This document shows, in pieces, positions 9,096 through 53,802 of a DNA stretch of 64,000 nt. Position 1 is the stretch's first letter. Each line of letters begins with the position of its first letter. The DNA is from Myxococcales bacterium (GTDB taxonomy: Bacteria > UBA10199 > 2-02-FULL-44-16 > JAAZCA01): NCBI GenBank assembly GCA_012513515.1, contig JAAZCA010000031.1, forward strand, positions 19,905-83,904. Reading direction: 5' to 3'. A program made the translations under genes and the position numbers. The notes under the pieces are model-generated. The model was not told where the DNA came from, did no database searches, and was given only the letters and a program-made list of their open reading frames with translations.

Positions 9096-9800
9096 ATGCC
9101 GCCAAAAATCAATATCAAAAGGAGTCTGCTCGGCGGATTGGTCCCCAATGAGTTTCAAACCGACGTGGCCCATATGGTCGATTTCGCTCATAACGGCCTC
9201 CCTTTACAGCTCATCCGAAGTGGAGAGCCGGTCGAGCCGATACATCAAGATCATAAGATAGCGAAACACAACAACTGCAACGGCAAGGAGGAGTGTCTCG
9301 CCGATCACTATTTCGGAAGTTTTTTCGATGTGAAAATCGGAATATCCGAACCGCCCCCCAGAATCGCAGCCGCAATCTTTGAAGATAGGACAACGGCCCT
9401 GAAAACCACCGAAAGATACCCAAAAAGCTACATCGAATCGTTGATGATCTGCCCGAGGCCTGCGGCGTTTAACACCGGCGCACACAGGATCGTGGTAGTC
9501 TTCTGGACCTCAGCTGAAAGATTTGCCGCGGCCTTCGAGGAGGGGGGGAGCCCTCTTCGCCCCAAAGATGAAAACTTCTTCGTTGACGGCCTGACTCCCA
9601 AGGCGGAGGAGATGCTCCTAAACCCTATATTCATAGAAAATCAACTTCTCCCCTCCATCGTCGAGGCGATGACGGGCCAGCAACTTTTCAAGGATGCACA
9701 TAATTTCTTAATAAAAGTAAACAATCCCTCCAAGAATTCAGGCCACACCGGTCACTGGTTTGAAGGGTGCCGCCCTTCTAACTTGATGTATAAATATTAA
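9096..9800 (+). CDS. Hypothetical protein (orphan)
   Basis: 234-aa ORF with strong RBS (GGAGGAG); no recognised family. Confidence 0.7.
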   Translation: MPPKINIKRSLLGGLVPNEFQTDVAHMVDFAHNGLPLQLIRSGEPVEPIHQDHKIAKHNNCNGKEECLADHYFGSFFDVKIGISEPPPRIAAAIFEDRTTALKTTERYPKSYIESLMICPRPAAFNTGAHRIVVVFWTSAERFAAAFEEGGSPLRPKDENFFVDGLTPKAEEMLLNPIFIENQLLPSIVEAMTGQQLFKDAHNFLIKVNNPSKNSGHTGHWFEGCRPSNLMYKY

Positions 9801-9931: not shown

Positions 9932-12589
9932 TTAACGAGGTTTTTTAGGATTCGCGCCCATGATCCTATTCGCCCAAGATTGTGTGCGTTCTATAAAGCG
10001 CCTTTCTACTCCATCAGCAGATACGATTTGAAGAGAACCCACACCTTTGATCTTCATCTTGGATCTTATGATCTTCTCAACGTTATCCCTGCTCATGCCC
10101 CCAGTAAGTGGGATCCTCACCTTGAACTTCCCTGTCGGGGTATCTTCTAAATCACACCAGTCTATCTTCACGCGATCATTTAACAGAGCTTCGAGCACGC
10201 TTTGCATAACTCCCTTATCTGCAAATTCTGTTCTCTCGACCACAACATCCATAAATGTGACTTTGCCCACGTAGGGAGGGGGGGTGCCCCTGTAGGAATC
10301 CTCGAGCGTGGAGAAAAATTCGTCCACCGCCTCCAACTTGCTAGGCTCGTCGATAGGCATCTCGAATTCAAGCAAGGCCTGCTGTGATTCTCCAACCCTT
10401 TCGAATTTTACGGATGAAAAAGAAAGCCCGTAGTCAAACGCCGACAAAAGTATGTTTTTGAGAAGCGATGAGTCGTGACGAAGGAGAAGTCTGGCCGAAA
10501 CTTTTTCGTTACGATCGTAACGCGTAAAAAGTATCGAATTCGCCATTATCCTGCTCTTGACTTCGTTGACAAAATCCTGCCGCCAAGCTCCAGAAGTTTT
10601 AGAAATTTCAGAAGCTTTACGAAAAGCCCCAAGCGTTATAAAGAACTCTTCCTCAGTTTTGAATCCCAATCTGCGATAGAGACGCTCAAACGAAAAAAGG
10701 AAGGTCGGGCTGGCAGTCCCAAACTTCCTTCCCCCCTGTGAATTTATGAGCTCCTCCTTCACCTCGGATGATATCCTAGCCAGCTCAGCCTTGCCATGTC
10801 CGGAAAGGTACTCCTTATTTATCTTTCTGGGATCAAGCGAGAAATTCTTCTCTGCGACGGTTGCAGCATATAACATCATCGCCCTGGCGTAGGGGGTTTT
10901 CACAATATGGATCCTTGTGGGAAATATAGAATGGCCCCTCGTTTGGAAATCGAACCTCTGACCGGATTCGATACGGGACTCAAGTTTTTTGGACGAACCT
11001 TCCAAAAAACCCACATCGGCATAGAGAGCGGAAAATGCGTCCCTCGCAAAGGCGGCGTCAAGCAGGGATGGTTTTCTATCTTGGCTGCCGGTAACGATCT
11101 TCAAAATCTTTCCGTTGGAGTCATCGATGACGAAAAAAGTTCCGGACGAATGAATCCCATCTTTTTTCGCTTTAAACAGGGTTCTGGGAGGGTCTATGTC
11201 CGACGAGGTCGTTAGCTGCACCGTTTCCCCTGTTTTATAAGCGCCATGAGCTGCGGAACCGAACTCGGCATTCATGTGCATGGCCGACGTTCTTACCTGT
11301 ACCTCCAGGAGATATCCGCTGGAATCCTTATAATAGGCGTGTAGGGACTTATACCCGTTTGCCTTTTGTTTAACATAGATGTAGTCGTCGTAATGCTCAG
11401 GTAGATACTCCCAGCCGCGGGCGGTGAAATAAGCTTTGACCTCCTCCATCGCCTCGTAGCACATTTCGTCGCGATCGTCATTTATTATGATCCTAATTCC
11501 GTTGGTATCGCGGTTATTCCCCTTCTTATCACGTCTGACACGGGCACTGACAGTTGTCTTCATGCGATGCTCGATATAGTGACCGATGCCTTTAGCATCC
11601 AAAGCATCCCTGAGCTCCCTTGAAATTTCTTCCAGCCTGGCATTGGACGATCTCCTATCCATGCCGACCTGCTTGCGGAGATGTTCTTCCATTTCCTCGT
11701 AAGAGAATGGCTCCAGATGCCGGAATGCGACGTCCTCGAGGGTTCCTCCATCCTGGCTAAAACCGAAATATTTCAGTATCTGCGATGTGACGAAACGAGA
11801 TCGCTGCATCTTCTCCTCGCTCTCGCGGTCGAGGCCGGAAGAAGGGCGCTGAGATAAAAGCCCTGCGTCGACTGTGTCCTGAGCCGCGAGAAGCATCAAC
11901 TCCTCGTGGCTGTTCGAAATCGCGAATAGAAGGCTCATGAGACGGCCGTACTGATTCTTGTCAGACCAGTCGCAGGTAAAGGATTTTGTCCTCTCGAGCT
12001 GGCTCAGTAATTTTTTAACCTCCGATTTACCATTCCCGGAGATAGAATAATCCTTCTTTCCGGAGATCAGCGCGGCGGCGATCGCGGGAGTGGAGGAGTC
12101 CCAGCTGGCGAGTAAAAACGCACATCGCAAATTTCTTATTTGGCTATCGGTGGAAAGAGTGGAAAGGTTATCAAGCGCACTTCTGACAAGTTTGAGGTCC
12201 TTATGCCCCAGCTTTTCGAGCCGTTCGAGGAGCTTCTTTTTCGGCTCAGAGGTATCATCGGGATCATGGTCAGGAAAACCATAAAGCCCCGCAAAAATCT
12301 CTGAGGACTTCAATGCAGCGCTGGCAGCGGCATCGCCGGAGGAAAAGATCGCAGCCCCGGATCCCGCATCGCCTGCAAAGGCCATCGCGTGAGATGGAGC
12401 AAAGATTGATCCGGCGGAAATGCCATGCGGCGCACCATGAGCGAACCTTTTGCAAAAATTTTTAACCTGGCAAATGGTGAAAACTGGAGCGCTTGAGCTC
12501 CCAGCCTGCCCGGCGAAAGCCACAGGAGCGAAAGAGGCAGGCGTTGCGGCAAAAGGAAAATTAAAAGGCTTAAGCACAGGAAAACGCAT
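9932..12589 (-). CDS. Long RelA/SpoT homologue with intact (p)ppGpp synthetase motifs, degenerate HD hydrolase and N-terminal low-complexity extension
   Basis: HRMKTTVS, RDTNGIRII, DDYI..KANGYKSLH, EVQVRT, AEFGSAAHGAYK. Start placed at ATG 12589 (RBS AGGGG) because the track start at 12808 lies inside a repeat cassette. Confidence 0.85.
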   Translation of the reverse strand: MRFPVLKPFNFPFAATPASFAPVAFAGQAGSSSAPVFTICQVKNFCKRFAHGAPHGISAGSIFAPSHAMAFAGDAGSGAAIFSSGDAAASAALKSSEIFAGLYGFPDHDPDDTSEPKKKLLERLEKLGHKDLKLVRSALDNLSTLSTDSQIRNLRCAFLLASWDSSTPAIAAALISGKKDYSISGNGKSEVKKLLSQLERTKSFTCDWSDKNQYGRLMSLLFAISNSHEELMLLAAQDTVDAGLLSQRPSSGLDRESEEKMQRSRFVTSQILKYFGFSQDGGTLEDVAFRHLEPFSYEEMEEHLRKQVGMDRRSSNARLEEISRELRDALDAKGIGHYIEHRMKTTVSARVRRDKKGNNRDTNGIRIIINDDRDEMCYEAMEEVKAYFTARGWEYLPEHYDDYIYVKQKANGYKSLHAYYKDSSGYLLEVQVRTSAMHMNAEFGSAAHGAYKTGETVQLTTSSDIDPPRTLFKAKKDGIHSSGTFFVIDDSNGKILKIVTGSQDRKPSLLDAAFARDAFSALYADVGFLEGSSKKLESRIESGQRFDFQTRGHSIFPTRIHIVKTPYARAMMLYAATVAEKNFSLDPRKINKEYLSGHGKAELARISSEVKEELINSQGGRKFGTASPTFLFSFERLYRRLGFKTEEEFFITLGAFRKASEISKTSGAWRQDFVNEVKSRIMANSILFTRYDRNEKVSARLLLRHDSSLLKNILLSAFDYGLSFSSVKFERVGESQQALLEFEMPIDEPSKLEAVDEFFSTLEDSYRGTPPPYVGKVTFMDVVVERTEFADKGVMQSVLEALLNDRVKIDWCDLEDTPTGKFKVRIPLTGGMSRDNVEKIIRSKMKIKGVGSLQIVSADGVERRFIERTQSWANRIMGANPKKPR

Positions 12590-12599
12590 AGTCCCCTGC

Positions 12600-12626
12600 T
12601 TCTCGGCTTCCTGCAAAAAAAGTTGC
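12600..12626 (-). promoter_or_regulatory. Putative alternative-sigma promoter GCAAC-N14-GCCGAGAA
   Basis: Minus strand GCAA ctttttttgcaggaa GCCGAGAA, ending 10 nt before ATG 12589. Confidence 0.5.
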
Positions 12627-12775
12627 GTACTTCTTTCGGGGAGGCAAACGATTCGCGCCACTATAAAAAAGATACATATCAGCGACTTAACCGGTTCGGC
12701 CAGTCCATGCAAGCGAAAATACTTAAGTAACCTCCGAAAAATCAGCAAATTCAGAGCGCCTCTAAAAACCATGCG

Positions 12776-13010
12776 CTTGTCATCCCCGAGTGACGGAAAG
12801 GTCGTCATCCCCGAATGACGAGAAGGTTGTCATCCCCGAGTGGTATAATCGGGGATCCCGCAACAGCCGTGAAGTGGGAAAAACAGAAGCTAGAAGCTAG
12901 AAAAACCTCGCCTGTAGAAATCTCGCTTCTCGCTTCCAGATTCCAGCTTCTTGATGTTTTGGTCGATGGTCAATCGTCCATGGTCGAAGTTATTGTTGCC
13001 TCTAGCTTTT
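12776..13010. repeat. Intergenic mosaic repeat cassette with three tandem GTCATCCCCGA units (25-nt period)
   Basis: GTCATCCCCGA x3, hairpin ending TCGGGGATCC, AGAAGCT heptamers; 12885-12961 is an inverted copy of about 22008-22077. Confidence 0.9.
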
Positions 13011-13178
13011 CAGAGGTTCCTTAAAGGATCAAAAGAAACAAAATCACAAACGAACAGCTTATTGCCTTGCCATGACGCGCTGCGTGGAATAGTCTGTGGG
13101 CATTCAAATTCGCTCTTTCATAAAGTTGCCCGCAAAATGTCCATTCTCCTTTGAACCGAATAAAACGAGGGAGGGGTT

Positions 13179-13661
13179 ATGTATTGTGGGGGAAAAGAAT
13201 CGCCAAACGGAGTGCGCCTTACAAACACGCAGGTAAATGCGTTCACCAGATTTTTGAAGATTGGTTGGAATGTCGGTCACGAAGATCAGGGGACCCCTAT
13301 AGATCTCTCGCTTTTCGATTCTTTCCACTCGCTGGATCAATACCGTTACTCCCTTTTCCCAAATCGCATGAAGCCATTTCAGTTCGGATATGATCTGGGC
13401 TATAAAAATTTTCTGGAAACAAATAGACGCGGATTCTTTGACAAGTTCTCCCCGGACTTCAATCTGGATGCCCTGCAACTTAGACAAAAAATTCCATGGC
13501 CGATAGAAATAATTCTACCCAGCGCCAAGATACTCATTGGATTCGATTTCATGAATAAATATCCCAGCGAAAAAAGCCTGACGGCCATGGGGTGGGAGGA
13601 AGGGCAGCTCGACGACAACCTGAGCTCCGGCGTAGCGAAACAGTTTCAAATATCGTTCTGA
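13179..13661 (+). CDS. Hypothetical protein (orphan)
   Basis: 160-aa ORF preceded by a G-rich RBS; ends 5 nt from the convergent TonB receptor stop. Confidence 0.6.
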   Translation: MYCGGKESPNGVRLTNTQVNAFTRFLKIGWNVGHEDQGTPIDLSLFDSFHSLDQYRYSLFPNRMKPFQFGYDLGYKNFLETNRRGFFDKFSPDFNLDALQLRQKIPWPIEIILPSAKILIGFDFMNKYPSEKSLTAMGWEEGQLDDNLSSGVAKQFQISF

Positions 13662-20084: not shown

Positions 20085-21947
20085 ATGAGCAAGCCTCCCC
20101 TGCGAGCTTTGTCGATTTTATTGGCGATAGCAACAATTCCGCTGGCGTCGTGTTCATCCACTTATATGAAGAGTGCGGATGGAGCCCATCGCGCCATGTA
20201 TCGTGGCGATTATAAGCGTGCGATCAATCTGATAAATGCCGTAAAACCCGCACAGAAAGATGCGCTCCTTCACCTGATGGACAAGGGGATGATCCTGCAC
20301 GCTGCCGGACACTACGAAGAGAGCAATAAGGTTCTTTTCGAAGCGGAGGATCTTGCAAAAGGGATACGTTCCAAGAGCCTTTCGCGCGAGGTTGGGGCTA
20401 CGCTTGGCAGCGAAGAGGCGACCGAATACTCCGGCGACAATCATGAAGTCGTGATGATTGCCGTCACGAGGATGCTCAACTTCCTAATGCTTGACGATTG
20501 GAATTCAGCTCTCGTGGAAGTGAGAAGGGTTGGAAATATCGCTGCGGATTATTACGGTTCTTCAAAAAATTTCGACAACGCCTTTGCGATATATCTCTCG
20601 GCTGTTATATGGGAAACGCTGGGACACTTAAATGACGCCTACATAGATTATAAAAGACTGGCGTCGCTCAATAAAAATATCCCCTATTATTCAAGCGATC
20701 TGAAAAGTTCCGCGAAGAGGCTCGGTCTTTCAGCCAATCTACCGCAAAAGCTTTCCACTCCATTGGAAACGCCTGAAAATTACAGATCGCACGGAGCTGG
20801 CGAGCTCATAGTGATACTGCAGAGCGGGCGTTCACCGAAATTCGTATCTGAATACGTATCCGATGGGCTGATCACTATGGCAGTTCCAATAGCGTTTGTA
20901 TGGCCTGACTCGCCTGCGATGGCAGATGTCATCGTAGATGGAAAAAGCATCGGCGGAACTTATCCATTCTACAATGTGTCCGACGATGTGATGCGCGCAA
21001 TGAAAAGCCGTCAGAAGCGCACGCTGGTCAGAAAAATTATCAAAAGCTCTGTGCAGACCGGCCTTTATGGGGCGAGCTATAACCTGATGAAATCTGATGA
21101 TTCGGCAGAACAGGGGCTCGGCCTCGCGCTTGGAATCGCCGGGCTTTTGATGTCGGCATCCGAAAAGGCGGATGAAAGGAGCTGGCGCACCCTTCCAGCC
21201 CACTATGAAATAGGAAGGTTCTATCTGAAGCCGGGAAAGAGTGAAGTCTCGGTAGTCTCCAGATCCGGGGCTAAAATAGTTTCAAAAGATGTTGAGATCT
21301 CCAAGGAGAAACCCGTCCTTATCCTTGCCCACGTCCCTTGGGACGGAATCGATACGCCAAAGAGGTATGCTGCTAAGCAGAGTGAACAAAAAAATATCTC
21401 CGAAAAGGAGAGGACCATCTCAAAGGAGATCAGGAAAAGACCCTCTGATGGAAATCTAAAAATAGATTTGGCGGAGGCAAAAATAGAGAACGGGGATTAC
21501 GACATCGAAAAGCTGCTTTTGGATGGAATTTCGCAGGGAGGAGATAATATCCGCGGATATTCACTTCTTACCGTATCACTAGCTGTAAAAGGGGATTATA
21601 TTCCGGCATCCAAAACCGCGCAAAAAGCAGGGCTAACATCCTATGCAGACGCACTCGCCTACGCCGGCGGTGAAAAGAGCTCCGCCCCAAAATCATCGTA
21701 CTCTCCTTCGGAGGGGAGGGTCAAAGGCTTTTCAAGTTTTACGCACGGGCTCGTTGCTGAAAAAGACGGAAATCATAAGGAGGCCTGCCGACTCTTTTTA
21801 AAATCATACGAGGATGGTTTAAAAGGCAAGCCGGTTATCAAAAAGACGCTTGCCGCCCTCGGCGCCTCCGGGGATGATTTCAAGAAATCTGCTGAAGGCA
21901 GGGCCATAGCCGACAAGTTCATCGATGAATATCTCGAGATGTACTAG
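20085..21947 (+). CDS. COG3014-family TPR lipoprotein with long C-terminal extension
   Basis: Lipobox LASC; DKGMILHAAGHYEESN, YSGDNHE, NSALVEVRR, EKADERSWRTLP; usual neighbour of LpoB. Confidence 0.8.
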   Translation: MSKPPLRALSILLAIATIPLASCSSTYMKSADGAHRAMYRGDYKRAINLINAVKPAQKDALLHLMDKGMILHAAGHYEESNKVLFEAEDLAKGIRSKSLSREVGATLGSEEATEYSGDNHEVVMIAVTRMLNFLMLDDWNSALVEVRRVGNIAADYYGSSKNFDNAFAIYLSAVIWETLGHLNDAYIDYKRLASLNKNIPYYSSDLKSSAKRLGLSANLPQKLSTPLETPENYRSHGAGELIVILQSGRSPKFVSEYVSDGLITMAVPIAFVWPDSPAMADVIVDGKSIGGTYPFYNVSDDVMRAMKSRQKRTLVRKIIKSSVQTGLYGASYNLMKSDDSAEQGLGLALGIAGLLMSASEKADERSWRTLPAHYEIGRFYLKPGKSEVSVVSRSGAKIVSKDVEISKEKPVLILAHVPWDGIDTPKRYAAKQSEQKNISEKERTISKEIRKRPSDGNLKIDLAEAKIENGDYDIEKLLLDGISQGGDNIRGYSLLTVSLAVKGDYIPASKTAQKAGLTSYADALAYAGGEKSSAPKSSYSPSEGRVKGFSSFTHGLVAEKDGNHKEACRLFLKSYEDGLKGKPVIKKTLAALGASGDDFKKSAEGRAIADKFIDEYLEMY

Positions 21948-22005: not shown

Positions 22006-22266
22006 TTAAACATCAAGAAGCTAGAATCTAGAAGTGAGAGGCGATTTCTACAGGCGAGGTTTTTCTAGCTTCTAGCCCCTCGCTTCTGGCCTCTGTTTTT
22101 CTCAGTCACGGTTGTTACGGGATCCCCGATTAAACCGCTCGGGGATGACAACCTTTTCGCCATTCGGGGATGACGACCATACTGTCATTCCCGCATGATT
22201 TAAGCCGCCGCTACCGCGGGGTTCCGACCGCTCACCAGTTACGAGTCACCAGTCACAAGTCACGGC
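22006..22266. repeat. Intergenic mosaic repeat cassette (longest copy)
   Basis: Contains all modules (CTAGAAG heptamers, GGATCCCCGA..TCGGGGATGAC, GTCATTCCCGCATGATTTAAGCCGCCGCTACCGCGGGG, GTCAC heptamers); between convergent genes. Confidence 0.9.
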
Positions 22267-26844: not shown

Positions 26845-28986
26845 GTGAAAGTTCTGAAGCTCTTTCTCTGCGTATTGTGCTCCATCCAAGTCGCGCTGGC
26901 ATCGGCATCTGCTCTGGCCAATCCAAAAATAGATTCCTTTATAAAGACCTCCAAACTCCGCAAGAGCGCGGTTTCATACAAGGCGCTTTCCATGAAAGCC
27001 TCTGTAAAATCTGAAGATTCCGAAATGGTGGAAGTCTTTATAAAGAGCTCCGATCCGGAGTCGACAAAGTCAAAAATTAAAAGGGCCCAGGGGTGGGTAC
27101 ACACCTCAACCGATTCGGTGATCACGGCTTCTATCGCCAGCGACTCGCTGGAGTCGATCGCCGAATCGGAGGAGGTACAGTTCATTGAAGGCGGCAAGCC
27201 AATCGGAAAGAGCAATGACAAGGCAGCAATTGAAATCAACGCTGGAGAGGTCAGCAAAAGTCTGAATCTTCCCGAAGGCTATACCGGAGAGGGAGTGATC
27301 ATCGGAATCATCGACACCGGGATCGACTATTCCCACGCCGATTTTAAAGACGCCGAAGGGCGCAGCCGCATCATATCGATCTGGAATCAGATGCACTCCG
27401 GCGGAAAATCTCCCAGCGAAATCGAAAACAGCTTTGGAACGGAATGTGATTCCGATTCGATAGCTGACGGAAGCTGTCCCCTCGCGGATTCCGATGGACA
27501 TGGAACCCATGTCGCCGCCACCGCGGCAGGAAGCGACGAGACCTACAGGGGAATTGCTCCCGACGCCAACATAATAGTTGTCAGCTACGACTCCAGCGTT
27601 TCGATGGACACGGGATATGCCAAGCCGATCTTTTCAACAAAAATCTGCCAGGCCGCTTATTACATCTTCAAAAAAGCCGACTCGTTAGGCATGCCGGCCG
27701 TAATCAACTTGAGCCTTGGGACCCACATCGGGTCGCACGACGGGTCATCACTTTTCGAATCATGCCTCAGCGAATTGCTGAAAGACTCCGCGGGTCGCGC
27801 AATAGTTGCGGCCGCCGGAAATGAATACACCGAAGGCAAAAACGGATTCACAGGAATACACGTCGGAGGCGAGATAAGCGAAACGACTGCCTCGAACTTC
27901 GTCATAAGAAGAATAACATCCGACAGGATATATTACATAGACCTATGGGGATCGAAGGGAAGCGATCTCTCAGTTGGCCTCGCATTTCACAATGGACGCG
28001 CAGGAGGAACGCCTGAAAAATTTTCGGGCCTCGTTGAAATGGGGGCGAGTTCAAGCGGATCGTTTCTCGACGGAAAGATAAATTATGTTATCAATTTCAC
28101 CGAAGAATCGTCAGCCTTAAATGGCAAGCCGCATGCCGGCATAAGGATAATGGTCGATCCATCGCTAAACGATATTTCCCGGCACAGCTTCGATCTCGTA
28201 GTCTCAGGAAACGGGTCTTACGATGCATGGCTCTTTCCGGACAAGCCGTCAGAGACGATACAATTTACAGATTTTCAGGGCGGCGCCAACACATGGAATT
28301 ACGTGCCGGGGGACAGCATGAAGAGCATAGCGATGCCCGCCACATCCCCTGAAGTTATCGCCGTAGCCGGATACACAACGCGCAACAGCTGGAACAGAGG
28401 CTCCGGATGCTGCGAAGTAGCCTTCAATCTCGGAGCCATACTCGATTTCTCGAGTTCAGGCCCCAGCGCGGATCCTTCAGCTACAGGCCAGAAGCCAGAA
28501 ATAGCAGCGCCGGGCGGAATGATAGCCTCCGCGCTATCCTCGACGGCGACTCACAATAGCCTGATGATCATGCCCGATGGCAAACATGCTCTCCAGGCCG
28601 GCACCAGCATGGCGGCCCCATTTGTGACGGGGACAATCGCTCTGATGTTCTCAGCCGATTCCAACTACACCCACGATGACGTAAAAAAATACATAGTCGA
28701 AAGCGCCTACGTCGATGAAGACGTTGGCGAAGCTCCCAACAACAGATGGGGTTTTGGAAAACTCGACGTGCTGGCCGCACTCGAAACAGCGATCAACGGA
28801 GGTTCATCCGGCCGCTTCGACGGGAATCAAAGCCTCAGCGAACCTGAAGGCGCAGGCGCTTCCGGAGGAAGCCTTGGTTGCACGCTCTCCTCGGAGGTGA
28901 GCGGATCCGACAAAAAGATAGTCTTGGCAGGAATGTTCTTCATCGCAGCGGCCCTGATAGCGGCGAGAAGGCGTTCGATGAGATAG
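26845..28986 (+). CDS. S8 (subtilisin-like) serine protease with C-terminal Cys-TM-basic sorting tail (MYXO-CTERM-like)
   Basis: GIIDTG, DGHGTHVA, AAAGNE, GTSMAAP; tail GGSLGC...IVLAGMFFIAAALIAARRR. Confidence 0.92.
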   Translation: MKVLKLFLCVLCSIQVALASASALANPKIDSFIKTSKLRKSAVSYKALSMKASVKSEDSEMVEVFIKSSDPESTKSKIKRAQGWVHTSTDSVITASIASDSLESIAESEEVQFIEGGKPIGKSNDKAAIEINAGEVSKSLNLPEGYTGEGVIIGIIDTGIDYSHADFKDAEGRSRIISIWNQMHSGGKSPSEIENSFGTECDSDSIADGSCPLADSDGHGTHVAATAAGSDETYRGIAPDANIIVVSYDSSVSMDTGYAKPIFSTKICQAAYYIFKKADSLGMPAVINLSLGTHIGSHDGSSLFESCLSELLKDSAGRAIVAAAGNEYTEGKNGFTGIHVGGEISETTASNFVIRRITSDRIYYIDLWGSKGSDLSVGLAFHNGRAGGTPEKFSGLVEMGASSSGSFLDGKINYVINFTEESSALNGKPHAGIRIMVDPSLNDISRHSFDLVVSGNGSYDAWLFPDKPSETIQFTDFQGGANTWNYVPGDSMKSIAMPATSPEVIAVAGYTTRNSWNRGSGCCEVAFNLGAILDFSSSGPSADPSATGQKPEIAAPGGMIASALSSTATHNSLMIMPDGKHALQAGTSMAAPFVTGTIALMFSADSNYTHDDVKKYIVESAYVDEDVGEAPNNRWGFGKLDVLAALETAINGGSSGRFDGNQSLSEPEGAGASGGSLGCTLSSEVSGSDKKIVLAGMFFIAAALIAARRRSMR

Positions 28987-33810: not shown

Positions 33811-36360
33811 ATGCCTGCCAGAAAAATTCCGGCATCGGAACTGAGATGGAGTCCGCCAAAGTCGATGCTCAATAAGTTCAAAAATCCGCTAAAAATACAG
33901 CCCACCGAAGCTATTGTAGGACAGCGAAAGGCCACCGACGCGCTGGACGTGGGGCTCAAGCTCTACAAGAGGGGTTACAACATCTATGTGGCCGGCATAG
34001 CTGGCACCGGCAGGATGACGACCATCCGGAGGGCGCTCCAAAAAGTCTGCAAGGAGGCATCATGCCGTCCGGAGGGAAGGATCGTTCCCCCCGACAGATG
34101 TTACGTTTACAATTTTATCGATGCGTCGCAGCCGATACTGCTTACCTTCCCGAGGGGTCAGGGGCGCGTCTTCAAAGACGACATAAACGAGTTTATAAGG
34201 TTCCTCAGGACGGAGATACCGAAGGTCCTCGAGTCGCAAAACGTCTCTAAAGAACGCGAGATGATCGTGGAGAGGTACCAGCGCCAGGAGAAGAAAATTT
34301 TCGAGGAATTCGCTGAAAGCCTGAAGAGGGAAGGCTTCGCCCTCATACAGGTTCAGGAGGGCGGATATATAGCGCCGAGCGTTTTTCCGATCATAGGCAA
34401 CGAAGCGGTCTCGGTCGATTATCTGGACGTACTCGTCAAAGAGGAAAAGCTGGACGCCGCGGAACGCGACAAGAAGGTGAAGCGACACCGCGAACTGATG
34501 GCCGACCTGAAAAGGGTCCTCGCTAGCGCAAAGGGAGTGGGCAAGGAGATGCACCAGTCCCTTGAAAGGCTCGTGGAAAGAGCCGCCTCGACAGTTCTCG
34601 ACAGCGCCATGGACGACCTTCTCGTCAGATACAAAGATGAAAAGGTGAAAAAATATCTCCTGCGCGTAAAAAATCACATCCTCAAGAATATAGAGAACTT
34701 CTCGGGTAAGAAGGAAAATGAAAAACATCAGGAGGGAATACTGGTAATAGGCGGCGGATCGCGCCAGCCGGAGGACCCCTTCTGGTACTATGAAGTCAAC
34801 CTCCTCTACGACACCTCTTCCGTCCCTTCCGAACATGGTGACGCCCCGATAGTTGAAGAGCATAACCCCAGCTACATAAATCTTTTCGGAGCCATCGAAT
34901 ACAACGTGGGATCGGGAGGATTCTGGAGCACCGACTTTCGGCATATCAAAGCAGGTTCGCTTCTCAGGGCGGACGGCGGATACATAATAGTCAACGCGAT
35001 GGATCTTCTTCGCAGGCCTCTCGTATGGGATCAGCTCAAGAGGGTGCTCAAGACCGAGCAGCTCTCCATCCAGCAGCCAGAAAGCTATTTTCAGATAGCC
35101 CCCCTCACGCTGAAGCCCGAACCGATAGACCTCAGCGTGAAGGTGATCATGATCGGTCCGTCGTGGCTATACAATGTCCTCTACCACTATGAAGAGGATT
35201 TCCCAAAAACGTTCAAGGTGCTTTCCGACTTCGGAACTACTATGCCGCTCGATGACAACGCGGCGATCAACTACGCGGCCGTTCTTCGCGCCGTTTGCGA
35301 ACGCGGCAAAATCAGGCATTTCGACCAGGAAGGGCTGGTCGCCATGCTGGAACACGGAATCGAGGAGGCAGGACAGCGCGACCGCATATCGACGCGCTTC
35401 GCGTATATCACCGACGTCCTTCGCGAAGCGGATTTCTTCGCATCGCAAGATGGAAAATCTAAGATAGGCAGAAAGCACGTCGAACAGGCGATAGACAGCA
35501 AGAGGGATCGTCACAGCCTGACCGAAGAGAGAGTACAGCGCATGATAGACGAGGGAGTGCTATTGATAGACTGCAAGGGAAAACGCGTAGGTCAGGTCAA
35601 CGGTCTTTCGGTCTATCAGATGGGGCATGTCTCATTCGGAAAGCCGTCGCGCGTAACCGCAACCACTTCGGTTGGAACGGGCGGTATAGTAAACGTAGAG
35701 CGCGAAGCGAAGTTATCCGGGCCAATACACGACAAGGGAGTCCTTATCATCAATGGATATCTCCGCCAGAAATATGCGCAGCGCGAACCGCTAAACCTTT
35801 CCGCATCGATCTGTTTCGAACAGTCCTACGGCGGCGTGGACGGCGACTCGGCATCTTCAACTGAAATATACGCGATCCTCTCATCGCTTTCCGGACTTCC
35901 CATAAGGCAGGATATCGCCGTAACGGGATCCGTGAATCAGCTCGGCGACATTCAGCCGATCGGCGGAGCCAATGAAAAAATAGAGGGGTTCTTCGACGTC
36001 TGCAAGGCCAAGGGGCTTACCGGCAAACAGGGCGTGATGATTCCGGCGCAGAACGAAAGGCATCTGATGCTGAGGCGCGATATCGTCACAGCGGTCAAGA
36101 AGGGAAAGTTTCACATCTATTCGATAAGGGATATAGACGAAGGGCTTGAACTTCTCCTCGGAAAATCGGCCGGCAAGATGCGCTCAGACGGCAGCTATCC
36201 TCCCGAGACGGTTCACGGCATGGTGGCCAAGCGCATCGCTAAGATGAACGAAGTTCTCGCCACGATGGGAGGCGGCAAGGCCCCGGGCAAAAACAGCGAG
36301 AAGAAAGACACTGAAAAGAAAAATAAAGCGAAGAAAAAAACCAAAAAGCGCGGCAGGTAA
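33811..36360 (+). CDS. Lon-family (S16) ATP-dependent protease, LonB/LonC-like architecture
   Basis: GIAGTGR, IKAGSLLRADGG, GQVNGL, VDGDSAS (Ser) and IGGANEKIEGFF (Lys) dyad. Confidence 0.92.
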   Translation: MPARKIPASELRWSPPKSMLNKFKNPLKIQPTEAIVGQRKATDALDVGLKLYKRGYNIYVAGIAGTGRMTTIRRALQKVCKEASCRPEGRIVPPDRCYVYNFIDASQPILLTFPRGQGRVFKDDINEFIRFLRTEIPKVLESQNVSKEREMIVERYQRQEKKIFEEFAESLKREGFALIQVQEGGYIAPSVFPIIGNEAVSVDYLDVLVKEEKLDAAERDKKVKRHRELMADLKRVLASAKGVGKEMHQSLERLVERAASTVLDSAMDDLLVRYKDEKVKKYLLRVKNHILKNIENFSGKKENEKHQEGILVIGGGSRQPEDPFWYYEVNLLYDTSSVPSEHGDAPIVEEHNPSYINLFGAIEYNVGSGGFWSTDFRHIKAGSLLRADGGYIIVNAMDLLRRPLVWDQLKRVLKTEQLSIQQPESYFQIAPLTLKPEPIDLSVKVIMIGPSWLYNVLYHYEEDFPKTFKVLSDFGTTMPLDDNAAINYAAVLRAVCERGKIRHFDQEGLVAMLEHGIEEAGQRDRISTRFAYITDVLREADFFASQDGKSKIGRKHVEQAIDSKRDRHSLTEERVQRMIDEGVLLIDCKGKRVGQVNGLSVYQMGHVSFGKPSRVTATTSVGTGGIVNVEREAKLSGPIHDKGVLIINGYLRQKYAQREPLNLSASICFEQSYGGVDGDSASSTEIYAILSSLSGLPIRQDIAVTGSVNQLGDIQPIGGANEKIEGFFDVCKAKGLTGKQGVMIPAQNERHLMLRRDIVTAVKKGKFHIYSIRDIDEGLELLLGKSAGKMRSDGSYPPETVHGMVAKRIAKMNEVLATMGGGKAPGKNSEKKDTEKKNKAKKKTKKRGR

Positions 36361-36485
36361 ATTGTTAGAACGGGATTCCCGCCTAAAGCATGCGGGAATG
36401 ACTGCGCACTGAAAGGTTGTCATCCTCGAGTAGTGAGAAGGTTGTCATCCCCGAATGATTTTATCGGGGATCCAGCAACAACCGC
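36361..36485. repeat. Intergenic mosaic repeat cassette
   Basis: GGATTCCCGCCTAAAGCATGCGGGAATGAC plus tandem GTCATCC(T/C)CGA units and a hairpin ending TCGGGGATCC. Confidence 0.88.
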
Positions 36486-42995: not shown

Positions 42996-45674
42996 ATGTT
43001 TTCTGCCGGTGACGATAGATATAAACTTGGGCTTACCCCGATACAAACAGCGATTGTCGATGCCATTGCACCGGCGTTTTGTCCGGTACAAAAGTTTGAC
43101 AACAACCCTGTGAAAAAAGACGATTGCGACCTTCTGCTTGCGAAGGTGCTGGCGGATTCAACCGCGGCTCTCCAGGACGACGAGGCAAAAAACAGGTTCA
43201 CCGCCGAGATATTCCTCCCTGCAGCGCAGACAGTAGGGCACCAGTGCCAAGAACAAAAAGCAAAGAGAATGGTAGGAGATGAGAGACAATGCTCACTCGA
43301 CTCCTACAGGGATGAAAAAAAACCTAGGGTTCAAATTTTAACATCGAGAGATAGCGGTCTTTTAGAGATGCCCTTCATCCCATACCTAAGAGAGGCAGCT
43401 GCAGGAAGAGTGTCAGGAATCTTAAACGCACCGTCAGCCGGCTCCACACGTACAGTAGCTATGTTAACCGCCCCTCTGCCCAATGCAGAGTTTTCAAATT
43501 TTCTAAAAGAGCTCAGGGATAACGGAATGGTAAGGCTCGCCCGCGAGGCAATGCGCCTATTTAACGACGCGGCAGAGCGCGAGGGTTTCAACCGGTCAAA
43601 GATCGACCCCCTAGTTGATTCTATAATAGAGCTCGTAAAAGCGTTCTCAGATCATGTTCCGAGTTCATCAGATAAAGATCATGCAATCGATGCCGCACAT
43701 GAGGCGCTTTCGAAGACTATCATCTATAAATTCGAAGAGGACGGAAGAGGTGATTTTCGTACCCTCCCCGAAAGTGTGTGGGGAGCCGGGAGTAAACTGA
43801 CGGAAAAGGATGCTTTGAGAAAACTCTTCACAAATGCAATTCCGCGTTATCTCGCAAATAAAACAGCCCCGGCATACGCTGATAAAGATGTCACCAAAGC
43901 TCTGGGCGAACTCGGCGACGCGATGCTGAGTGCGATCCAAAAGAGCGCTGAAAAAGATCCCGCAAAGCTAGTCGTAAAAGAGGTGAAGACCGACGGAAGT
44001 GGGAAACCGACCGAGGTGATCTTTATGGATGGAGCCGAAGCCGCCAAAGCTCTGGCTGCTTCAGGTCTGGAAGATACGGACGGCAGGGCGCTTCCAAAAA
44101 GGCTCATCCAAGGGCTAGGCGCAGGATGGAATGAGATAGCGCTTGAGCCCCTGAAGGAACTTTGGAGGGCCGCCTACCTCAAGAACGCAAAACTTGCCAA
44201 GATCGGCACCCCCGAGCGCGAACGCGCAATAGACTCGATGATAGAGCAGCTAGAAGGTGCGAGCCCGGTTGGAATCAAAAGCGCGGTTGTGGAAGATGTT
44301 AAGAGAGACGGCACAGTCGTTCTGGGAAATCTCCCAGAAAAGAAATTCGCGGATAGATACCTCAATTATCTTTCAACGCTCGAAGGCGATATGTACATGG
44401 CCTTCTACGACAAGATAACCGAACTCCACAGGGAGGCCGTGAATAGCGCCGATTTCAAAGCCAAAAAATTTACGGAAGATGACGTAGCATCGGCGATAGA
44501 ACGCTCTCTGAGGGATGCGATATCCGGCGGTAAACCTAAAGGATTGAGCACCTTTGGACTGCTGCATTATGCGGGGCTTGATAAGAACAAGAAGCCGAGT
44601 TTTGCAGCAAAGACGGATGATAAAGGTAGGTTTGGAGGAGAAGCTTCAGTCGTAACATATTTCGACAGCGGTCGTGCCATACTGCAGGGAAGGTTGAGCG
44701 CAGATGTCAGGGCATGGGATATAAATCCGAATTGGTCGCTTTCTGTTCACGGTGGGGTGGCATACGGAGAGAGGCCTGGCTATTTTACCAGAGAGCTCAA
44801 TCGCCCAACAAGCAATCCACAAGGGGTGAAGGATAACTCTCTCGTAACCGGCATAAACTTGTCGGTTGATGGAAAGGTTATGGTAGGCAAGGAAGGCGAG
44901 AAGCGGCCTCTCGGCATGTCGATTGTTGCCGGTATTGTTGAAGACGGCAATGATTTTCGAAACAGGATAGTTTTCCCAAGTTATACCCTGTCCATTCCGT
45001 TTGGTAAAAAGGATGAGACGGGTAGTGGCTCTGTAAGTCTTGGGGCCTCCATTGGCAAATATTTAGATATAAACACTAACTCCAATACGCAAGATCAATG
45101 GAATCTTAATGAGTCGTTTTTTCTTGGCGGATCAGCAGGTGTAAAATGGCTGATGAATAAAGCGTGGAAAGCTAATTTGGGTCTATCGCTACAGTATGAT
45201 CATACTCTTAACGGAAGCGCCGCAAAGCTTTTACAGGGATTATTTGAACTTTCTGCTCAGCTCCCTGGAACCGGCCTCGCAGGCGCCTTTAAGATGATAT
45301 ATTCAGGAAGCTACTCTGAAAATAATTGGCATTATCTGAGCTTTAGAATTCCGATTGAGTTCATGTTCCCACTGCCAGAGGGATGGGAAATAGGTCCCCA
45401 AGTTATCTACAGGACCGATTTGTTTAGTACAGGATTCGATAAAACAAACGACTCCAATTATACATTAGATTCAGCTGCAAACGGCGGCACGATACCGAGT
45501 TCAATAGTCACCGATCCTTCCAATGGAAAGTTTATTCATATTTTAAATCCGCAATTGTGCATTAAACATGATGGAACCGTTGTCGGCGCTAGAGTTTGCA
45601 TGGGATATGCCTGTGCCATGCAGAATCCTTACATTAACCATTTTGGAACGTTTAATGGTGCACTAACTTGGTAA
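42996..45674 (+). CDS. Large hypothetical protein: helical N-terminal region and beta-barrel-like C-terminal region
   Basis: 892 aa; RBS GGAGG; C-terminal third has alternating Gly/aromatic strands and ends FNGALTW. Confidence 0.8.
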   Translation: MFSAGDDRYKLGLTPIQTAIVDAIAPAFCPVQKFDNNPVKKDDCDLLLAKVLADSTAALQDDEAKNRFTAEIFLPAAQTVGHQCQEQKAKRMVGDERQCSLDSYRDEKKPRVQILTSRDSGLLEMPFIPYLREAAAGRVSGILNAPSAGSTRTVAMLTAPLPNAEFSNFLKELRDNGMVRLAREAMRLFNDAAEREGFNRSKIDPLVDSIIELVKAFSDHVPSSSDKDHAIDAAHEALSKTIIYKFEEDGRGDFRTLPESVWGAGSKLTEKDALRKLFTNAIPRYLANKTAPAYADKDVTKALGELGDAMLSAIQKSAEKDPAKLVVKEVKTDGSGKPTEVIFMDGAEAAKALAASGLEDTDGRALPKRLIQGLGAGWNEIALEPLKELWRAAYLKNAKLAKIGTPERERAIDSMIEQLEGASPVGIKSAVVEDVKRDGTVVLGNLPEKKFADRYLNYLSTLEGDMYMAFYDKITELHREAVNSADFKAKKFTEDDVASAIERSLRDAISGGKPKGLSTFGLLHYAGLDKNKKPSFAAKTDDKGRFGGEASVVTYFDSGRAILQGRLSADVRAWDINPNWSLSVHGGVAYGERPGYFTRELNRPTSNPQGVKDNSLVTGINLSVDGKVMVGKEGEKRPLGMSIVAGIVEDGNDFRNRIVFPSYTLSIPFGKKDETGSGSVSLGASIGKYLDINTNSNTQDQWNLNESFFLGGSAGVKWLMNKAWKANLGLSLQYDHTLNGSAAKLLQGLFELSAQLPGTGLAGAFKMIYSGSYSENNWHYLSFRIPIEFMFPLPEGWEIGPQVIYRTDLFSTGFDKTNDSNYTLDSAANGGTIPSSIVTDPSNGKFIHILNPQLCIKHDGTVVGARVCMGYACAMQNPYINHFGTFNGALTW

Positions 45675-53580: not shown

Positions 53581-53802
53581 GACTCCCGTGACTGGCGACA
53601 ATTGACAATGGACCATTGACCAGCTGCGATCGGTTGTTTTGGTCGATGGTCAATTGTCCATGGTCGAGGTTATTGTCGGAACGGGATTCACGTTTGCCCC
53701 GCGGTAGCGGCGGCTTAAATCATGCGGGAATGACATTCATGGTGTCATCCCCGAATGACGAGAAGGTTGTCATCCCCAAGTGCTTTAATCGGGGATCCAG
53801 TA
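53581..53802. repeat. Intergenic mosaic repeat cassette
   Basis: GGTCGATGGTCAATTGTCCATGGTCGA, CCCCGCGGTAGCGGCGGCTTAAATCATGCGGGAATGAC, tandem GTCATCCCC units. Confidence 0.9.

What the first reader, a model, noticed from the sequence alone, without database searches (positions are those of the whole stretch)
9932..12589. Synthetase-only long RSH with an Ala/Phe/Pro-rich N-terminal extension
Seen: synthetase motifs are intact (RMK, DTNGIR, DDY, NGYKSLH, EVQVRT), the HD position reads AAALISGKK instead of AAxLHD, the TGS/ACT regions are highly diverged, and about 90 N-terminal residues are low-complexity (MRFPVLKPFNFPFAATPASFAPVAFAGQAGSSS...). The promoter motif is directly upstream. Established: hydrolase-dead synthetases are toxic unless tightly controlled, and some RSH-derived enzymes act as toxins or effectors. 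Inference: a second, non-housekeeping RSH, possibly exported, with the extension as a targeting sequence.
Basis: partly seen in the sequence, partly recalled or inferred. Interest (0 to 1): 0.66.

Follow-up and report, generated by a model that had tools for sequence, protein, structure and literature searches.

The report
Hydrolase-dead long RelA/SpoT-type alarmone synthetase
This gene encodes a full-length but very diverged relative of the bacterial "stringent response" enzymes RelA, SpoT and Rel. It keeps the alarmone-making site, has lost the alarmone-degrading site and carries a conserved disordered N-terminal tail, and it looks like a cytoplasmic housekeeping enzyme of an uncultured lineage, not an exported toxin.

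Summary
ORF 9932..12589 (-) encodes an 885-aa protein with the full long-RSH layout.

- **Domains:** pseudo-HD, SYNTH, TGS, helical, a ferredoxin-like domain at the zinc-finger position, and ACT/RRM. Residues 109-858 align to a canonical Rel end to end (hhalign E 3e-111), and Foldseek matches full-length RelA/SpoT at about 1e-17.
- **Synthetase:** the motifs are intact and carry the RelA-type EXDD signature.
- **Hydrolase:** the HD metal ligands are gone.
- **Start codon:** the 108-aa N-terminal extension is really translated. The sister gene starts at the same codon, dN/dS is 0.2, and the longer 958-aa database model starts inside a repeat-element insertion.
- **Extension:** it is predicted disordered, has no signal-peptide character, and similar tails occur in most family members.
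- **Family:** about 30 representatives form a hydrolase-dead clade apart from Rel, RelA and SpoT. The members that carry names come from Margulisbacteria, Saganbacteria and unclassified MAGs. Three divergent members sit in one conserved housekeeping neighbourhood. None has a toxin-antitoxin or immunity partner.
- **Sensing residues:** the TGS histidine that reads the tRNA CCA end and the zinc-finger cysteines are both missing, so activation probably differs from RelA.

The reading as an exported effector is not supported. Whether the genome also holds a hydrolase-competent RSH could not be tested.

The parts
9932..12589 (-). Coding sequence of the 885-aa hydrolase-dead long RSH (stop codon included)
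   Evidence: ORF list. Start at 12589 is supported by the sister protein P0002 starting at the same MRFP, by the upstream DNA comparison and by dN/dS of codons 1-68 = 0.18.
12266..12589 (-). N-terminal extension, residues 1-108: Ala/Phe/Ser/Gly/Pro-rich, predicted disordered, under purifying selection
   Evidence: pLDDT below 50 for residues 1-108. Canonical Rel residue 1 aligns to window residue 109. dN/dS is 0.20 over codons 1-110 against 0.32 for the rest. A metatranscriptome contig covers 12190-12494. Comparable tails occur across the family.
11660..12265 (-). Pseudo-hydrolase (HD-fold) domain plus the helical bundle linking it to the synthetase, residues about 109-310; the catalytic H..HD ligands are absent (AAALISGKK at 171)
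   Evidence: hhalign to the canonical HD region. Alignment of the HD motif. A canonical-HD HMM scores only 4.5 bits. The segment is all-helical with pLDDT 82-96.
11210..11659 (-). Synthetase (SYNTH) domain, residues about 311-460, with R342/K344/S348, D361, E398-x-D401-D402, Y413, E429, H448 and K452
   Evidence: Pfam RelA_SpoT E 4e-18. A canonical SYNTH HMM scores 105.9 bits. Residue-by-residue match to E. coli RelA D275, Y319, E335 and H354. Invariant columns in the family.
10934..11188 (-). Diverged TGS domain, residues about 468-552; the histidine that stacks on the tRNA CCA end (RelA H432, B. subtilis Rel H420) is Asp517 here
   Evidence: Profile alignment to B. subtilis Rel and E. coli RelA TGS. 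hhalign. The family column is not conserved. The role of H432/H420 is taken from PMC7797070.
10541..10921 (-). Helical domain, residues about 557-683
   Evidence: AF2 helices 557-683. Aligned to the canonical helical region, including the 'FS.ERL..R.GF' segment.
10310..10537 (-). Ferredoxin/ACT-like domain at the position of the zinc-finger (ZFD/CC/RIS) domain, residues about 685-760, without the conserved cysteines
   Evidence: hhalign places it opposite the canonical CC..PGD..H..C segment, but the segment contains no Cys (sequence). Its secondary-structure order is beta-beta-alpha-beta-beta-alpha. The CTD model weakly matches tandem-ACT proteins.
10019..10258 (-). C-terminal ACT/RRM domain, residues about 778-857
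   Evidence: beta-alpha-beta-beta-alpha-beta topology. Aligned to the canonical ACT/RRM. Pfam ACT_4 hits this last domain in family member P0015.
9935..10018 (-). 28-residue C-terminal tail specific to this lineage (absent from the sister protein)
   Evidence: Pairwise alignment with P0002. Low pLDDT.
12590..12726 (-). Upstream leader shared with the sister contig, including a fully conserved GAAGTACGCAACTTTTTTTGC block and an AGGG Shine-Dalgarno-like element 3-4 nt before the ATG
   Evidence: DNA alignment of window and L001. Sequence. No sigma-70 consensus match.
12727..13024 (.). About 300-bp REP/MITE-like insertion absent from the sister contig; it supplies the ATG (12806-12808) used by the 958-aa database gene model
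   Evidence: Gap in L001 in the alignment. Three 25-nt tandem units. The motif is dispersed 14 times in the window against 1.4 expected. The ATG lies inside the motif TCGGGGATGAC.

Best explanation
The gene encodes a cytoplasmic, monofunctional (p)ppGpp synthetase. It belongs to a distinct, deeply diverged clade of long RelA/SpoT homologues of the '[hS]' type: a dead hydrolase fold kept as a structural or allosteric module, plus an active synthetase.

**Shown**
- The full long-RSH domain order is present.
- The synthetase catalytic residues are invariant across the clade.
- The hydrolase metal ligands are absent across the clade.
- The protein evolves under purifying selection.
- The 108-aa N-terminal tail is translated and conserved.

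**Inferred from what is established for RelA and Rel**
- The SYNTH domain transfers pyrophosphate from ATP to the 3'-OH of GDP or GTP.
- The C-terminal region keeps it auto-inhibited until a signal arrives.
- The acidic EXDD motif, as in RelA, goes with a synthetase-only lifestyle.
- Alarmone breakdown must be done by another enzyme.

**My inference on regulation**
Two elements that RelA and Rel use to dock on starved ribosomes are missing. One is the TGS histidine that reads the deacylated CCA end. The other is the set of zinc-finger cysteines, whose domain is replaced by a ferredoxin/ACT-like domain next to the terminal ACT. The activating signal is therefore probably read differently. Candidates are a ligand bound by the paired ACT-like module, or an altered mode of ribosome contact.

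The disordered N-terminal tail is most likely a regulatory or partner-docking segment, not a targeting signal.
For: **Architecture**
- AF2 model: pLDDT 77.9, pTM 0.72.
- Foldseek: full-length matches over about 800-830 alignment columns to ribosome-bound RelA and to full-length SpoT, E about 1e-17.
- hhalign, family against canonical long RSHs: window residues 109-858 equal Rel residues 1-731, E 3e-111.
- Family profile against PDB: B. subtilis Rel 1e-75, E. coli RelA 1e-65.

**Catalysis**
- R342/K344/S348, D361, Y413, E429, H448 and K452 align to RelA R252/K254/S258, D275, Y319, E335, H354 and K358. They are invariant or nearly so in 20 family members.
- EHYDDY corresponds to RelA EFDDY; the NJ tree labels show the acidic motif in most of the clade.

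**Dead HD**
- Alignment of the motif.
- Every clade member lacks H/HD.
- Canonical-HD HMM 4.5 bits against SYNTH HMM 105.9 bits.

**Selection**
- dN/dS is 0.32 over residues 111-885 and 0.20 over the tail.

**Housekeeping character**
- The gene stands alone.
- No conserved partner gene is shared across the whole family.
- Three diverged members share one locus next to acetate kinase, ApbE and OTCase.
- RNA contigs from three metatranscriptomes lie on the gene.

**Altered sensing**
- RelA H432 corresponds to D517, and the column is variable.
- There is no Cys at the ZFD position.
- The CTD-only model (pLDDT 86) matches tandem-ACT regulators: GcvR-like 1u8s, the AHAS small subunit and the threonine deaminase regulatory domain, E about 4e-3 to 1e-2.
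Against: - No enzymatic evidence exists. The product, (p)ppGpp, is inferred from conserved residues only.
- Foldseek E-values for the tandem-ACT resemblance are weak. B. subtilis Rel CTD (6htq_x) also matches the CTD-only model at 1.5e-2, so a conventional ribosome-binding CTD is not excluded.
- The position equivalent to RelA G251 is His341, and the PK.NGY loop carries a one-residue insertion (YVKQKANGY). Kinetics or substrate preference could therefore differ.
- I could not show that the genome has a separate hydrolase.
- The N-terminal motifs shared with distant members are loose.
Confidence: 0.68

Rival explanations
1. It is a functional equivalent of RelA in every respect: a ribosome-dependent stringent factor activated by deacylated tRNA in the A site. 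The sequence divergence of TGS and ZFD would then be only cosmetic.
For: The complete TGS, helical, ZFD-position and ACT order is retained and superposes on ribosome-bound RelA. It has the EXDD motif and a pseudo-HD as in RelA. The gene context is housekeeping.
Against: The histidine whose H432E/H420E substitution abolishes activation by deacylated tRNA (PMC7797070) is Asp here and is not conserved in the family. The zinc-finger cysteines are absent. The protein is not in the RelA clade and scores 72.8 bits against a RelA equivalog cut-off of 728.
Confidence: 0.22
2. It is an exported or secreted RSH-derived toxin or effector, and the N-terminal extension is the targeting signal.
For: The N-terminus begins with a basic MRFPVLK followed by a mildly hydrophobic Ala/Phe-rich stretch. 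RSH-fold secreted toxins exist; Tas1 (6ox6) appears as a distant structural match at E 1e-2.
Against: - There is no hydrophobic core: best 12-aa KD window 1.18, and four prolines in the stretch.
- The tail is predicted disordered over 108 aa.
- Family members have tails with no signal-like start.
- The 780-aa body is a complete regulated long RSH, not a bare toxin domain.
- There is no immunity, antitoxin or secretion gene next to it.
- ATP and GTP substrates are cytoplasmic (established knowledge).
- Positional conservation in housekeeping loci.
Confidence: 0.03
3. It makes a different product, (p)ppApp or a 3'-pyrophosphorylated tRNA, like the toxic small alarmone synthetases.
For: There is a weak PADLOC hit to candidate defence family PDC-S33 over the synthetase core (E 6e-7). 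CapRel (7ztb) and Tas1 appear as distant structural matches. The substrate loop has a one-residue insertion.
Against: Matches to long RSHs are many orders of magnitude stronger. The guanine-stacking Tyr (Y413) and the PK.NGYQSLH loop are conserved across the family. There is no adjacent antitoxin.
Confidence: 0.04
4. It is a decaying paralogue or a non-catalytic regulator.
For: Very high divergence from all characterised RSHs (about 30% identity in SYNTH only). Pfam recognises one domain only.
Against: dN/dS is 0.32, with no frameshifts or stops over 885 codons. The catalytic residues are invariant in about 20 distant homologues. The gene is transcribed in bioreactor communities.
Confidence: 0.03

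Closest known systems
RelA of Beta/Gammaproteobacteria (long RSH, [hS])
   Same: - Long RSH with a degenerate hydrolase fold retained in front of an active synthetase.
- Acidic EXDD motif (EHYDDY against EFDDY).
- Regulatory C-terminal region with TGS, helical and ACT/RRM domains.
- Best single-sequence PDB hit (E 6e-17).
   Different: - Not in the RelA clade.
- 72.8 bits against the RelA equivalog cut-off of 728.
- H432 equivalent is Asp.
- No zinc-finger cysteines; a ferredoxin/ACT-like domain stands in that place.
- 108-aa disordered N-terminal tail.
- Named members come from Margulisbacteria, Saganbacteria and unclassified MAGs, not from Beta/Gammaproteobacteria.
Bifunctional Rel (e.g. B. 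subtilis Rel, RelSeq, M. tuberculosis Rel)
   Same: End-to-end collinear domain order (hhalign E 3e-111; profile against 6yxa E 1e-75). In the profile alignment the matched HD region begins near residue 64 of PDB chain 8fr8_I (797 aa, deposited as 'GTP pyrophosphokinase RelA') but near residue 8 of B. subtilis Rel (6yxa_A). That chain therefore also has roughly 55 extra N-terminal residues, so N-terminal tails on long RSHs are not unprecedented.
   Different: The hydrolase ligands (H, HD) are absent. It has EXDD instead of RXKD. The TGS His and ZFD Cys are lost. The tail is longer.
Plant and algal RSH2/RSH3/CRSH with N-terminal transit peptides
   Same: Long RSH-derived proteins with a compositionally biased N-terminal extension that in plants is a targeting (chloroplast transit) sequence.
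   Different: This is a bacterial gene with no organelle to target. The family's tails carry no signal-peptide features. The one plant sequence in the tree (P0007, named Paspalum notatum) lies outside the clade.
Toxic small alarmone synthetases and secreted RSH toxins (FaRel, CapRel, Tas1)
   Same: They share the RelA_SpoT nucleotidyltransferase fold.
   Different: Those are single-domain proteins paired with antitoxin or immunity genes or fused to secretion domains (PMC7229694). Here the protein has the full long-RSH body, no partner gene, and only distant structural similarity (E 2e-3 to 1e-2).

Membership tests
Long RSH (RelA/SpoT/Rel-type multidomain enzymes) | N-terminal HD-fold domain (active or degenerate) followed by a helical linker | tested here: met
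   hhalign aligns residues 109-310 to the canonical HD region. Foldseek matches Rel N-terminal-domain crystal structures with TMt 0.5-0.74. 4 of 20 family members still hit Pfam HD_4.
Long RSH (RelA/SpoT/Rel-type multidomain enzymes) | SYNTH domain with the catalytic RxKxxxS, D..G.R, DxDDY/RxKDY, NGYQSLH and ExQxRT motifs | tested here: met
   Pfam PF04607 scores 66.2 bits against a cut-off of 27. Motif positions. Alignment to RelA.
Long RSH (RelA/SpoT/Rel-type multidomain enzymes) | TGS domain after the synthetase | tested here: met
   Below Pfam detection in the window protein, but aligned to the TGS of Rel and RelA by profile and hhalign. The predicted beta-grasp-like strands span residues 484-550. 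3 family members hit Pfam TGS weakly.
Long RSH (RelA/SpoT/Rel-type multidomain enzymes) | Zinc-finger / conserved-cysteine (ZFD/CC/RIS) domain | tested here: not met
   The segment opposite the canonical CC..PGD..H..C contains no cysteine and is predicted as a ferredoxin/ACT-like fold.
Long RSH (RelA/SpoT/Rel-type multidomain enzymes) | C-terminal ACT/RRM domain | tested here: met
   beta-alpha-beta-beta-alpha-beta over residues 778-857. Aligned to the canonical ACT. Pfam ACT_4 hits the same position in P0015.
RelA subfamily (NCBIfam NF008124, GTP diphosphokinase equivalog) | Score above the curated equivalog cut-off, and placement in the RelA clade | tested here: not met
   72.8 bits against a cut-off of 728. 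The NJ tree puts it in a separate clade from the Klebsiella and Salinicola RelA sequences.
RelA subfamily | TGS histidine (H432) that recognises the deacylated tRNA CCA end | tested here: not met
   It aligns to Asp517, and the column is variable in the family. The functional role is from PMC7797070.
Bifunctional Rel / SpoT (TIGR00691, NF008303) | Hydrolase metal-binding residues (His of 'HP', His-Asp of 'HD') and a score above the cut-off | tested here: not met
   The canonical 'HP' histidine is missing and S-G stands in place of H-D. TIGR00691 scores 101.6 against 499.2, and NF008303 scores 53.5 against 947.
toxSAS toxin-antitoxin modules / secreted RSH effectors | Single synthetase domain with an adjacent antitoxin or immunity gene, or fusion to a secretion or delivery domain | tested here: not met
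   Multidomain long RSH. The flanking genes are a divergent 160-aa ORF and a convergent 234-aa ORF with no family hits. There is no conserved partner across the family.
Sec/Tat-exported proteins | N-terminal signal peptide (basic n-region, hydrophobic h-region, cleavage site) or a twin-arginine motif | tested here: inconclusive
   Only a hydropathy heuristic was available. The maximum 12-aa KD window is 1.18, there is no RR motif and the stretch is proline-rich. No dedicated signal-peptide predictor was on hand.

The most novel reading that the evidence does not exclude
This clade is a previously uncharacterised type of stringent factor. It would be a synthetase-only long RSH that has given up reading the tRNA CCA end on the ribosome. 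Instead it would be gated by a small-molecule ligand through a paired ACT-like C-terminal module, and by a conserved disordered N-terminal tail acting through auto-inhibition, partner docking or controlled turnover. On this reading it would serve as the principal alarmone synthetase of Margulisbacteria, Saganbacteria and related uncultured lineages.
Probability: 0.25. Interest if true: 0.65.

Novelty: new variant of a known kind. Interest (0 to 1): 0.45.

Why it matters
Long RSH enzymes set (p)ppGpp levels in nearly all bacteria. Their regulation is understood mainly from RelA and Rel docking on starved ribosomes.

This clade independently became synthetase-only, as RelA did. It lost both the CCA-reading histidine and the zinc finger, and it gained an N-terminal disordered tail. 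It offers a natural experiment on how the same catalytic core can be wired to other signals, and on how candidate-phylum bacteria with no cultured members run their stringent response.

On the practical side, the database gene model (958 aa) is over-extended into a repeat element and should start at 12589.

Tried and rejected
- **Genome-contig scan for family members and the window's own genome.** Two alignments were too diverse to seed. The family's genomic distribution and the rest of this MAG therefore could not be fetched.
- **Third protein-database search, with the family profile.** It returned nothing new.
- **GroEL for taxonomy.** The nearest named hits are 'Pseudomonadota/Deltaproteobacteria bacterium' MAGs at 79-87% identity, and Margulisiibacteriota at 76%. 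NCBI lists the source as unclassified Bacteria. The phylum stays open.
- **Naming the clade against published long-RSH subfamilies.** Jimmy et al. 2020 report 13 long-RSH subfamilies, but their names and tables are not in the held text or supplements. I cannot say whether this clade already has a name.
- **Rfam on the upstream region and the whole window.** Only two tRNAs were found.
- **Sigma-70 promoter scan upstream.** Nothing was found.
- **Search for a second RSH or a small hydrolase.** I ran home-made HD and SYNTH HMMs over the 64-kb window and over about 20-kb flanks of nine family loci. None was found.
- **Alternative starts considered and rejected.** ATG 12808 (958 aa) lies in an insertion absent from the sister contig. 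M69 (817 aa, used by some gene callers) has no Shine-Dalgarno-like element, and the codons upstream of it are under purifying selection.
Full report
**1. What is there**

The minus-strand ORF ending at 9932 can be read from ATG 12808 (958 aa) or from ATG 12589 (885 aa, MRFPVLKP...). Public gene models of the identical protein use 958, 885, 817 or 801 aa.

Four lines of evidence fix the start at 12589.
- The only close homologue, P0002 (65% identity; contig L001 of GCA_964433695.1, syntenic with the window), starts at the same MRFP.
- In a DNA alignment of the two upstream regions, the window carries a roughly 300-bp insertion (12727-13024) that L001 lacks. The 12808 ATG lies inside it, within a copy of the repeat motif TCGGGGATGAC.
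- Between the two genes, codons 1-68 have dN/dS 0.18 and codons 1-110 have 0.20, against 0.32 for residues 111-885. The tail is therefore translated and constrained in this frame, which rules out the M69 start.
- A metatranscriptome contig identical to the window covers 12190-12494, upstream of M69. This evidence is low-depth, and DNA carry-over cannot be excluded.

**2. The observation**

Pfam finds only the RelA_SpoT synthetase domain. The NCBIfam RelA, SpoT and TIGR00691 models match only the linker-plus-synthetase part (window residues about 275-462) and fall far below their cut-offs.

In an alignment with canonical enzymes, AAALISGKK occupies the ..LHDVVED.. position, and the upstream 'HP' histidine is missing too. 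A canonical-HD HMM gives 4.5 bits, while a canonical SYNTH HMM gives 105.9 bits.

Residues 1-108 are Ala/Phe/Ser/Gly/Pro-rich and predicted disordered.

The one sub-claim I could not confirm is a promoter motif directly upstream. There is no sigma-70-like match. The recurrent motif there belongs to a dispersed REP/MITE-like element that also lies between convergent genes and is absent upstream of the sister gene.

**3. Architecture**

An AlphaFold2 model built on a 20-sequence family alignment (pLDDT 77.9, pTM 0.72) is ordered from residue about 110 to 857. Foldseek aligns about 800-830 columns of it to ribosome-bound E. coli RelA and to full-length SpoT, at E about 1e-17.

A global profile-profile alignment of the family against 28 canonical long RSHs maps window residues 109-858 onto Rel residues 1-731 (E 3e-111). 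The family profile hits B. subtilis Rel at 1e-75 and E. coli RelA at 1e-65.

The resulting layout is:

| Residues | Region |
|---|---|
| 1-108 | N-terminal tail |
| about 109-310 | pseudo-HD plus linker helices |
| about 311-460 | SYNTH |
| about 468-552 | TGS |
| about 557-683 | helical domain |
| about 685-760 | domain at the zinc-finger position |
| about 778-857 | ACT/RRM |
| 858-885 | lineage-specific tail |

Some family members still reach Pfam HD_4 (4 of 20), TGS (3) and ACT models. This confirms that the diverged regions are homologous to the canonical domains.

**4. Catalytic and sensing residues**

Using the E. coli RelA numbering recovered from the alignments:

| E. coli RelA | Window protein |
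|---|---|
| R252/K254/S258 | R342/K344/S348 |
| D275 | D361 |
| E306-x-D308-D309 | E398-x-D401-D402 |
| Y319 | Y413 |
| E335 | E429 |
| H354/K358 | H448/K452 |

The core ones are invariant or nearly invariant in the 20-member family alignment. The acidic EXDD-type motif is the one found in monofunctional RelA, not the basic RXKD of bifunctional Rel (tree labels).

Two sensing elements are missing.
- RelA H432 (B. subtilis Rel H420) stacks on the CCA end of deacylated tRNA. Its substitution abolishes activation (PMC7797070). It corresponds to Asp517 here, and the column is unconserved in the family.
- The segment opposite the canonical CC..PGD..H..C zinc finger has no cysteine.

A separate model of the C-terminal 330 residues (pLDDT 86.4) shows two consecutive ferredoxin-like units. 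Its best, though weak, structural matches are tandem-ACT regulators: GcvR-like 1u8s, AHAS small subunits, and the threonine-deaminase regulatory domain (E 4e-3 to 1e-2). B. subtilis Rel CTD matches at 1.5e-2.

**5. The family**

An exhaustive HMMER search of 1.84 billion representative proteins gives 17 hits below 1e-30 with near full-length alignments. Scores then fall steadily toward ordinary long RSHs at about 1e-18.

In an NJ tree over the linker, SYNTH and TGS region (137 sequences), the window protein falls in a clade of about 35 sequences. The clade is separated at the midpoint root from all Rel, RelA and SpoT sequences. Every member lacks the HD ligands. NJ on such divergent data is only indicative, and long-branch effects are possible.

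Members that carry names come from Candidatus Margulisbacteria/Margulisiibacteriota, Candidatus Saganbacteria, candidate division WOR-1, and a 'Pseudomonadota bacterium' MAG.

The window's own source is 'bacterium ADurb.Bin270', which is unclassified. Its GroEL is closest to unclassified 'Pseudomonadota/Deltaproteobacteria bacterium' MAGs. The same DNA is found in many wastewater, sludge and digester metagenomes.

**6. Context**

In the window the gene stands alone. A 160-aa ORF diverges from it upstream, and a 234-aa ORF converges on it downstream. Neither has any family match, and both are conserved in L001.

Other family loci have unrelated neighbours. Three deeply diverged members (P0013, P0114, P0101) do share one neighbourhood: RSH, then a convergent hexapeptide/NTP-transferase gene, acetate kinase, ApbE, and a divergent OTCase. 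That is the signature of a vertically inherited core gene, not of a mobile toxin.

No second RSH synthetase or hydrolase was found in the 64-kb window or in the flanks of nine family loci.

**7. The N-terminal tail**

Canonical Rel starts where window residue 109 aligns. Eighteen of the 20 aligned family members have 33-149 extra residues here.

In the Margulis/Saganbacteria-type members the tail contains a basic stretch followed by W-[VLI]-[CF]-P-x-P..LLG..PA..G, and then a hydrophobic H-I-x-[FL]-M-E-like patch. The window group has positionally analogous but diverged segments: FCKRFAHG..., SIFAPSHAMAFAGDAGS and SSEIFAGLYGFPD.

Nothing resembles a Sec or Tat signal by hydropathy. In the profile alignment, the HD region of PDB chain 8fr8_I (797 aa) begins near its residue 64, against residue 8 in B. 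subtilis Rel. N-terminal tails on long RSHs therefore have precedent.

**8. Interpretation**

The best-supported reading is a cytoplasmic, synthetase-only long RSH of a distinct clade. It would work like RelA in chemistry and in being auto-regulated by its C-terminal region, but with altered signal input. The exported-effector idea has essentially no support.

Whether the genome carries a separate hydrolase (Rel, SpoT or a small alarmone hydrolase) is the main open point. It could not be addressed with the scans available.

I cannot exclude that this clade is one of the 13 long-RSH subfamilies counted by Jimmy et al. 2020. Their names are not in the text I could read.

**9. Verdict**

- The feature is real.
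- The 'synthetase-only long RSH' reading is supported.
- The 'exported' and 'non-housekeeping' readings are not supported.

It is a new variant of a known kind. It is moderately interesting to the stringent-response field because of three things combined: loss of the CCA-reading histidine, loss of the zinc finger, and gain of a conserved disordered tail.

Noticed in passing
window 2365, 4658, 12779-12853, 22139-22174, 31710, 36419-36454, 40748, 51429, 53744-53779: A dispersed intergenic repeat family of roughly 120-150 nt. It is built from nested palindromes (GGATCCCCGA...TCGGGGATGAC, often in 25-nt tandem units, then GTCATTCCCGC...GCGGGAATCC). The core motif has 14 hits against 1.4 expected. 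Copies lie between convergent genes as well as upstream of genes, so it looks like a REP/MITE-like element and not a promoter.
   Followed up: partly
window 12806-12808 (minus strand): The 958-aa database gene model (OQA61211.1, 'GTP pyrophosphokinase') starts at an ATG supplied by one copy of that repeat, inside an insertion absent from the sister contig. The model is over-extended by 73 codons.
   Followed up: yes
window 13025-13178: The intergenic stretch upstream of the 160-aa ORF (13179..13661, +) is about 95% identical to the sister contig L001. This is much more conserved than the neighbouring coding sequences (about 65% amino-acid identity). There is no Rfam match. It is a possible unannotated small RNA, leader or regulatory region.
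   Followed up: partly
L083:10001-16569, L086:10001-16311, L088:10001-16244: Three deeply diverged family members share one gene order: RSH, then a convergent hexapeptide/NTP-transferase gene, acetate kinase, ApbE, and a divergent aspartate/ornithine carbamoyltransferase gene. Only P0114 (L086) carries a name, Candidatus Margulisiibacteriota bacterium.
   Followed up: partly
window 9096-9800 (+) and 13179-13661 (+): The two ORFs flanking the RSH gene (234 aa and 160 aa) have no Pfam, NCBIfam or PADLOC match, yet both keep their position next to the RSH gene in the sister contig L001.
   Followed up: partly
window 9935-10018 (minus strand): The window protein has a 28-residue C-terminal tail (..SADGVERRFIERTQSWANRIMGANPKKPR) after the ACT domain. 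The sister protein lacks it.
   Followed up: no
window 33811-36360, 51488-53566, 26845-28986, 48994-51375: Elsewhere in the window there are a LonC/LonB-like AAA protease, a CHASE2-sensor adenylate/guanylate cyclase and two large S8 subtilases. Two large ORFs (42996..45674 and 20085..21947) have no Pfam match.
   Followed up: no
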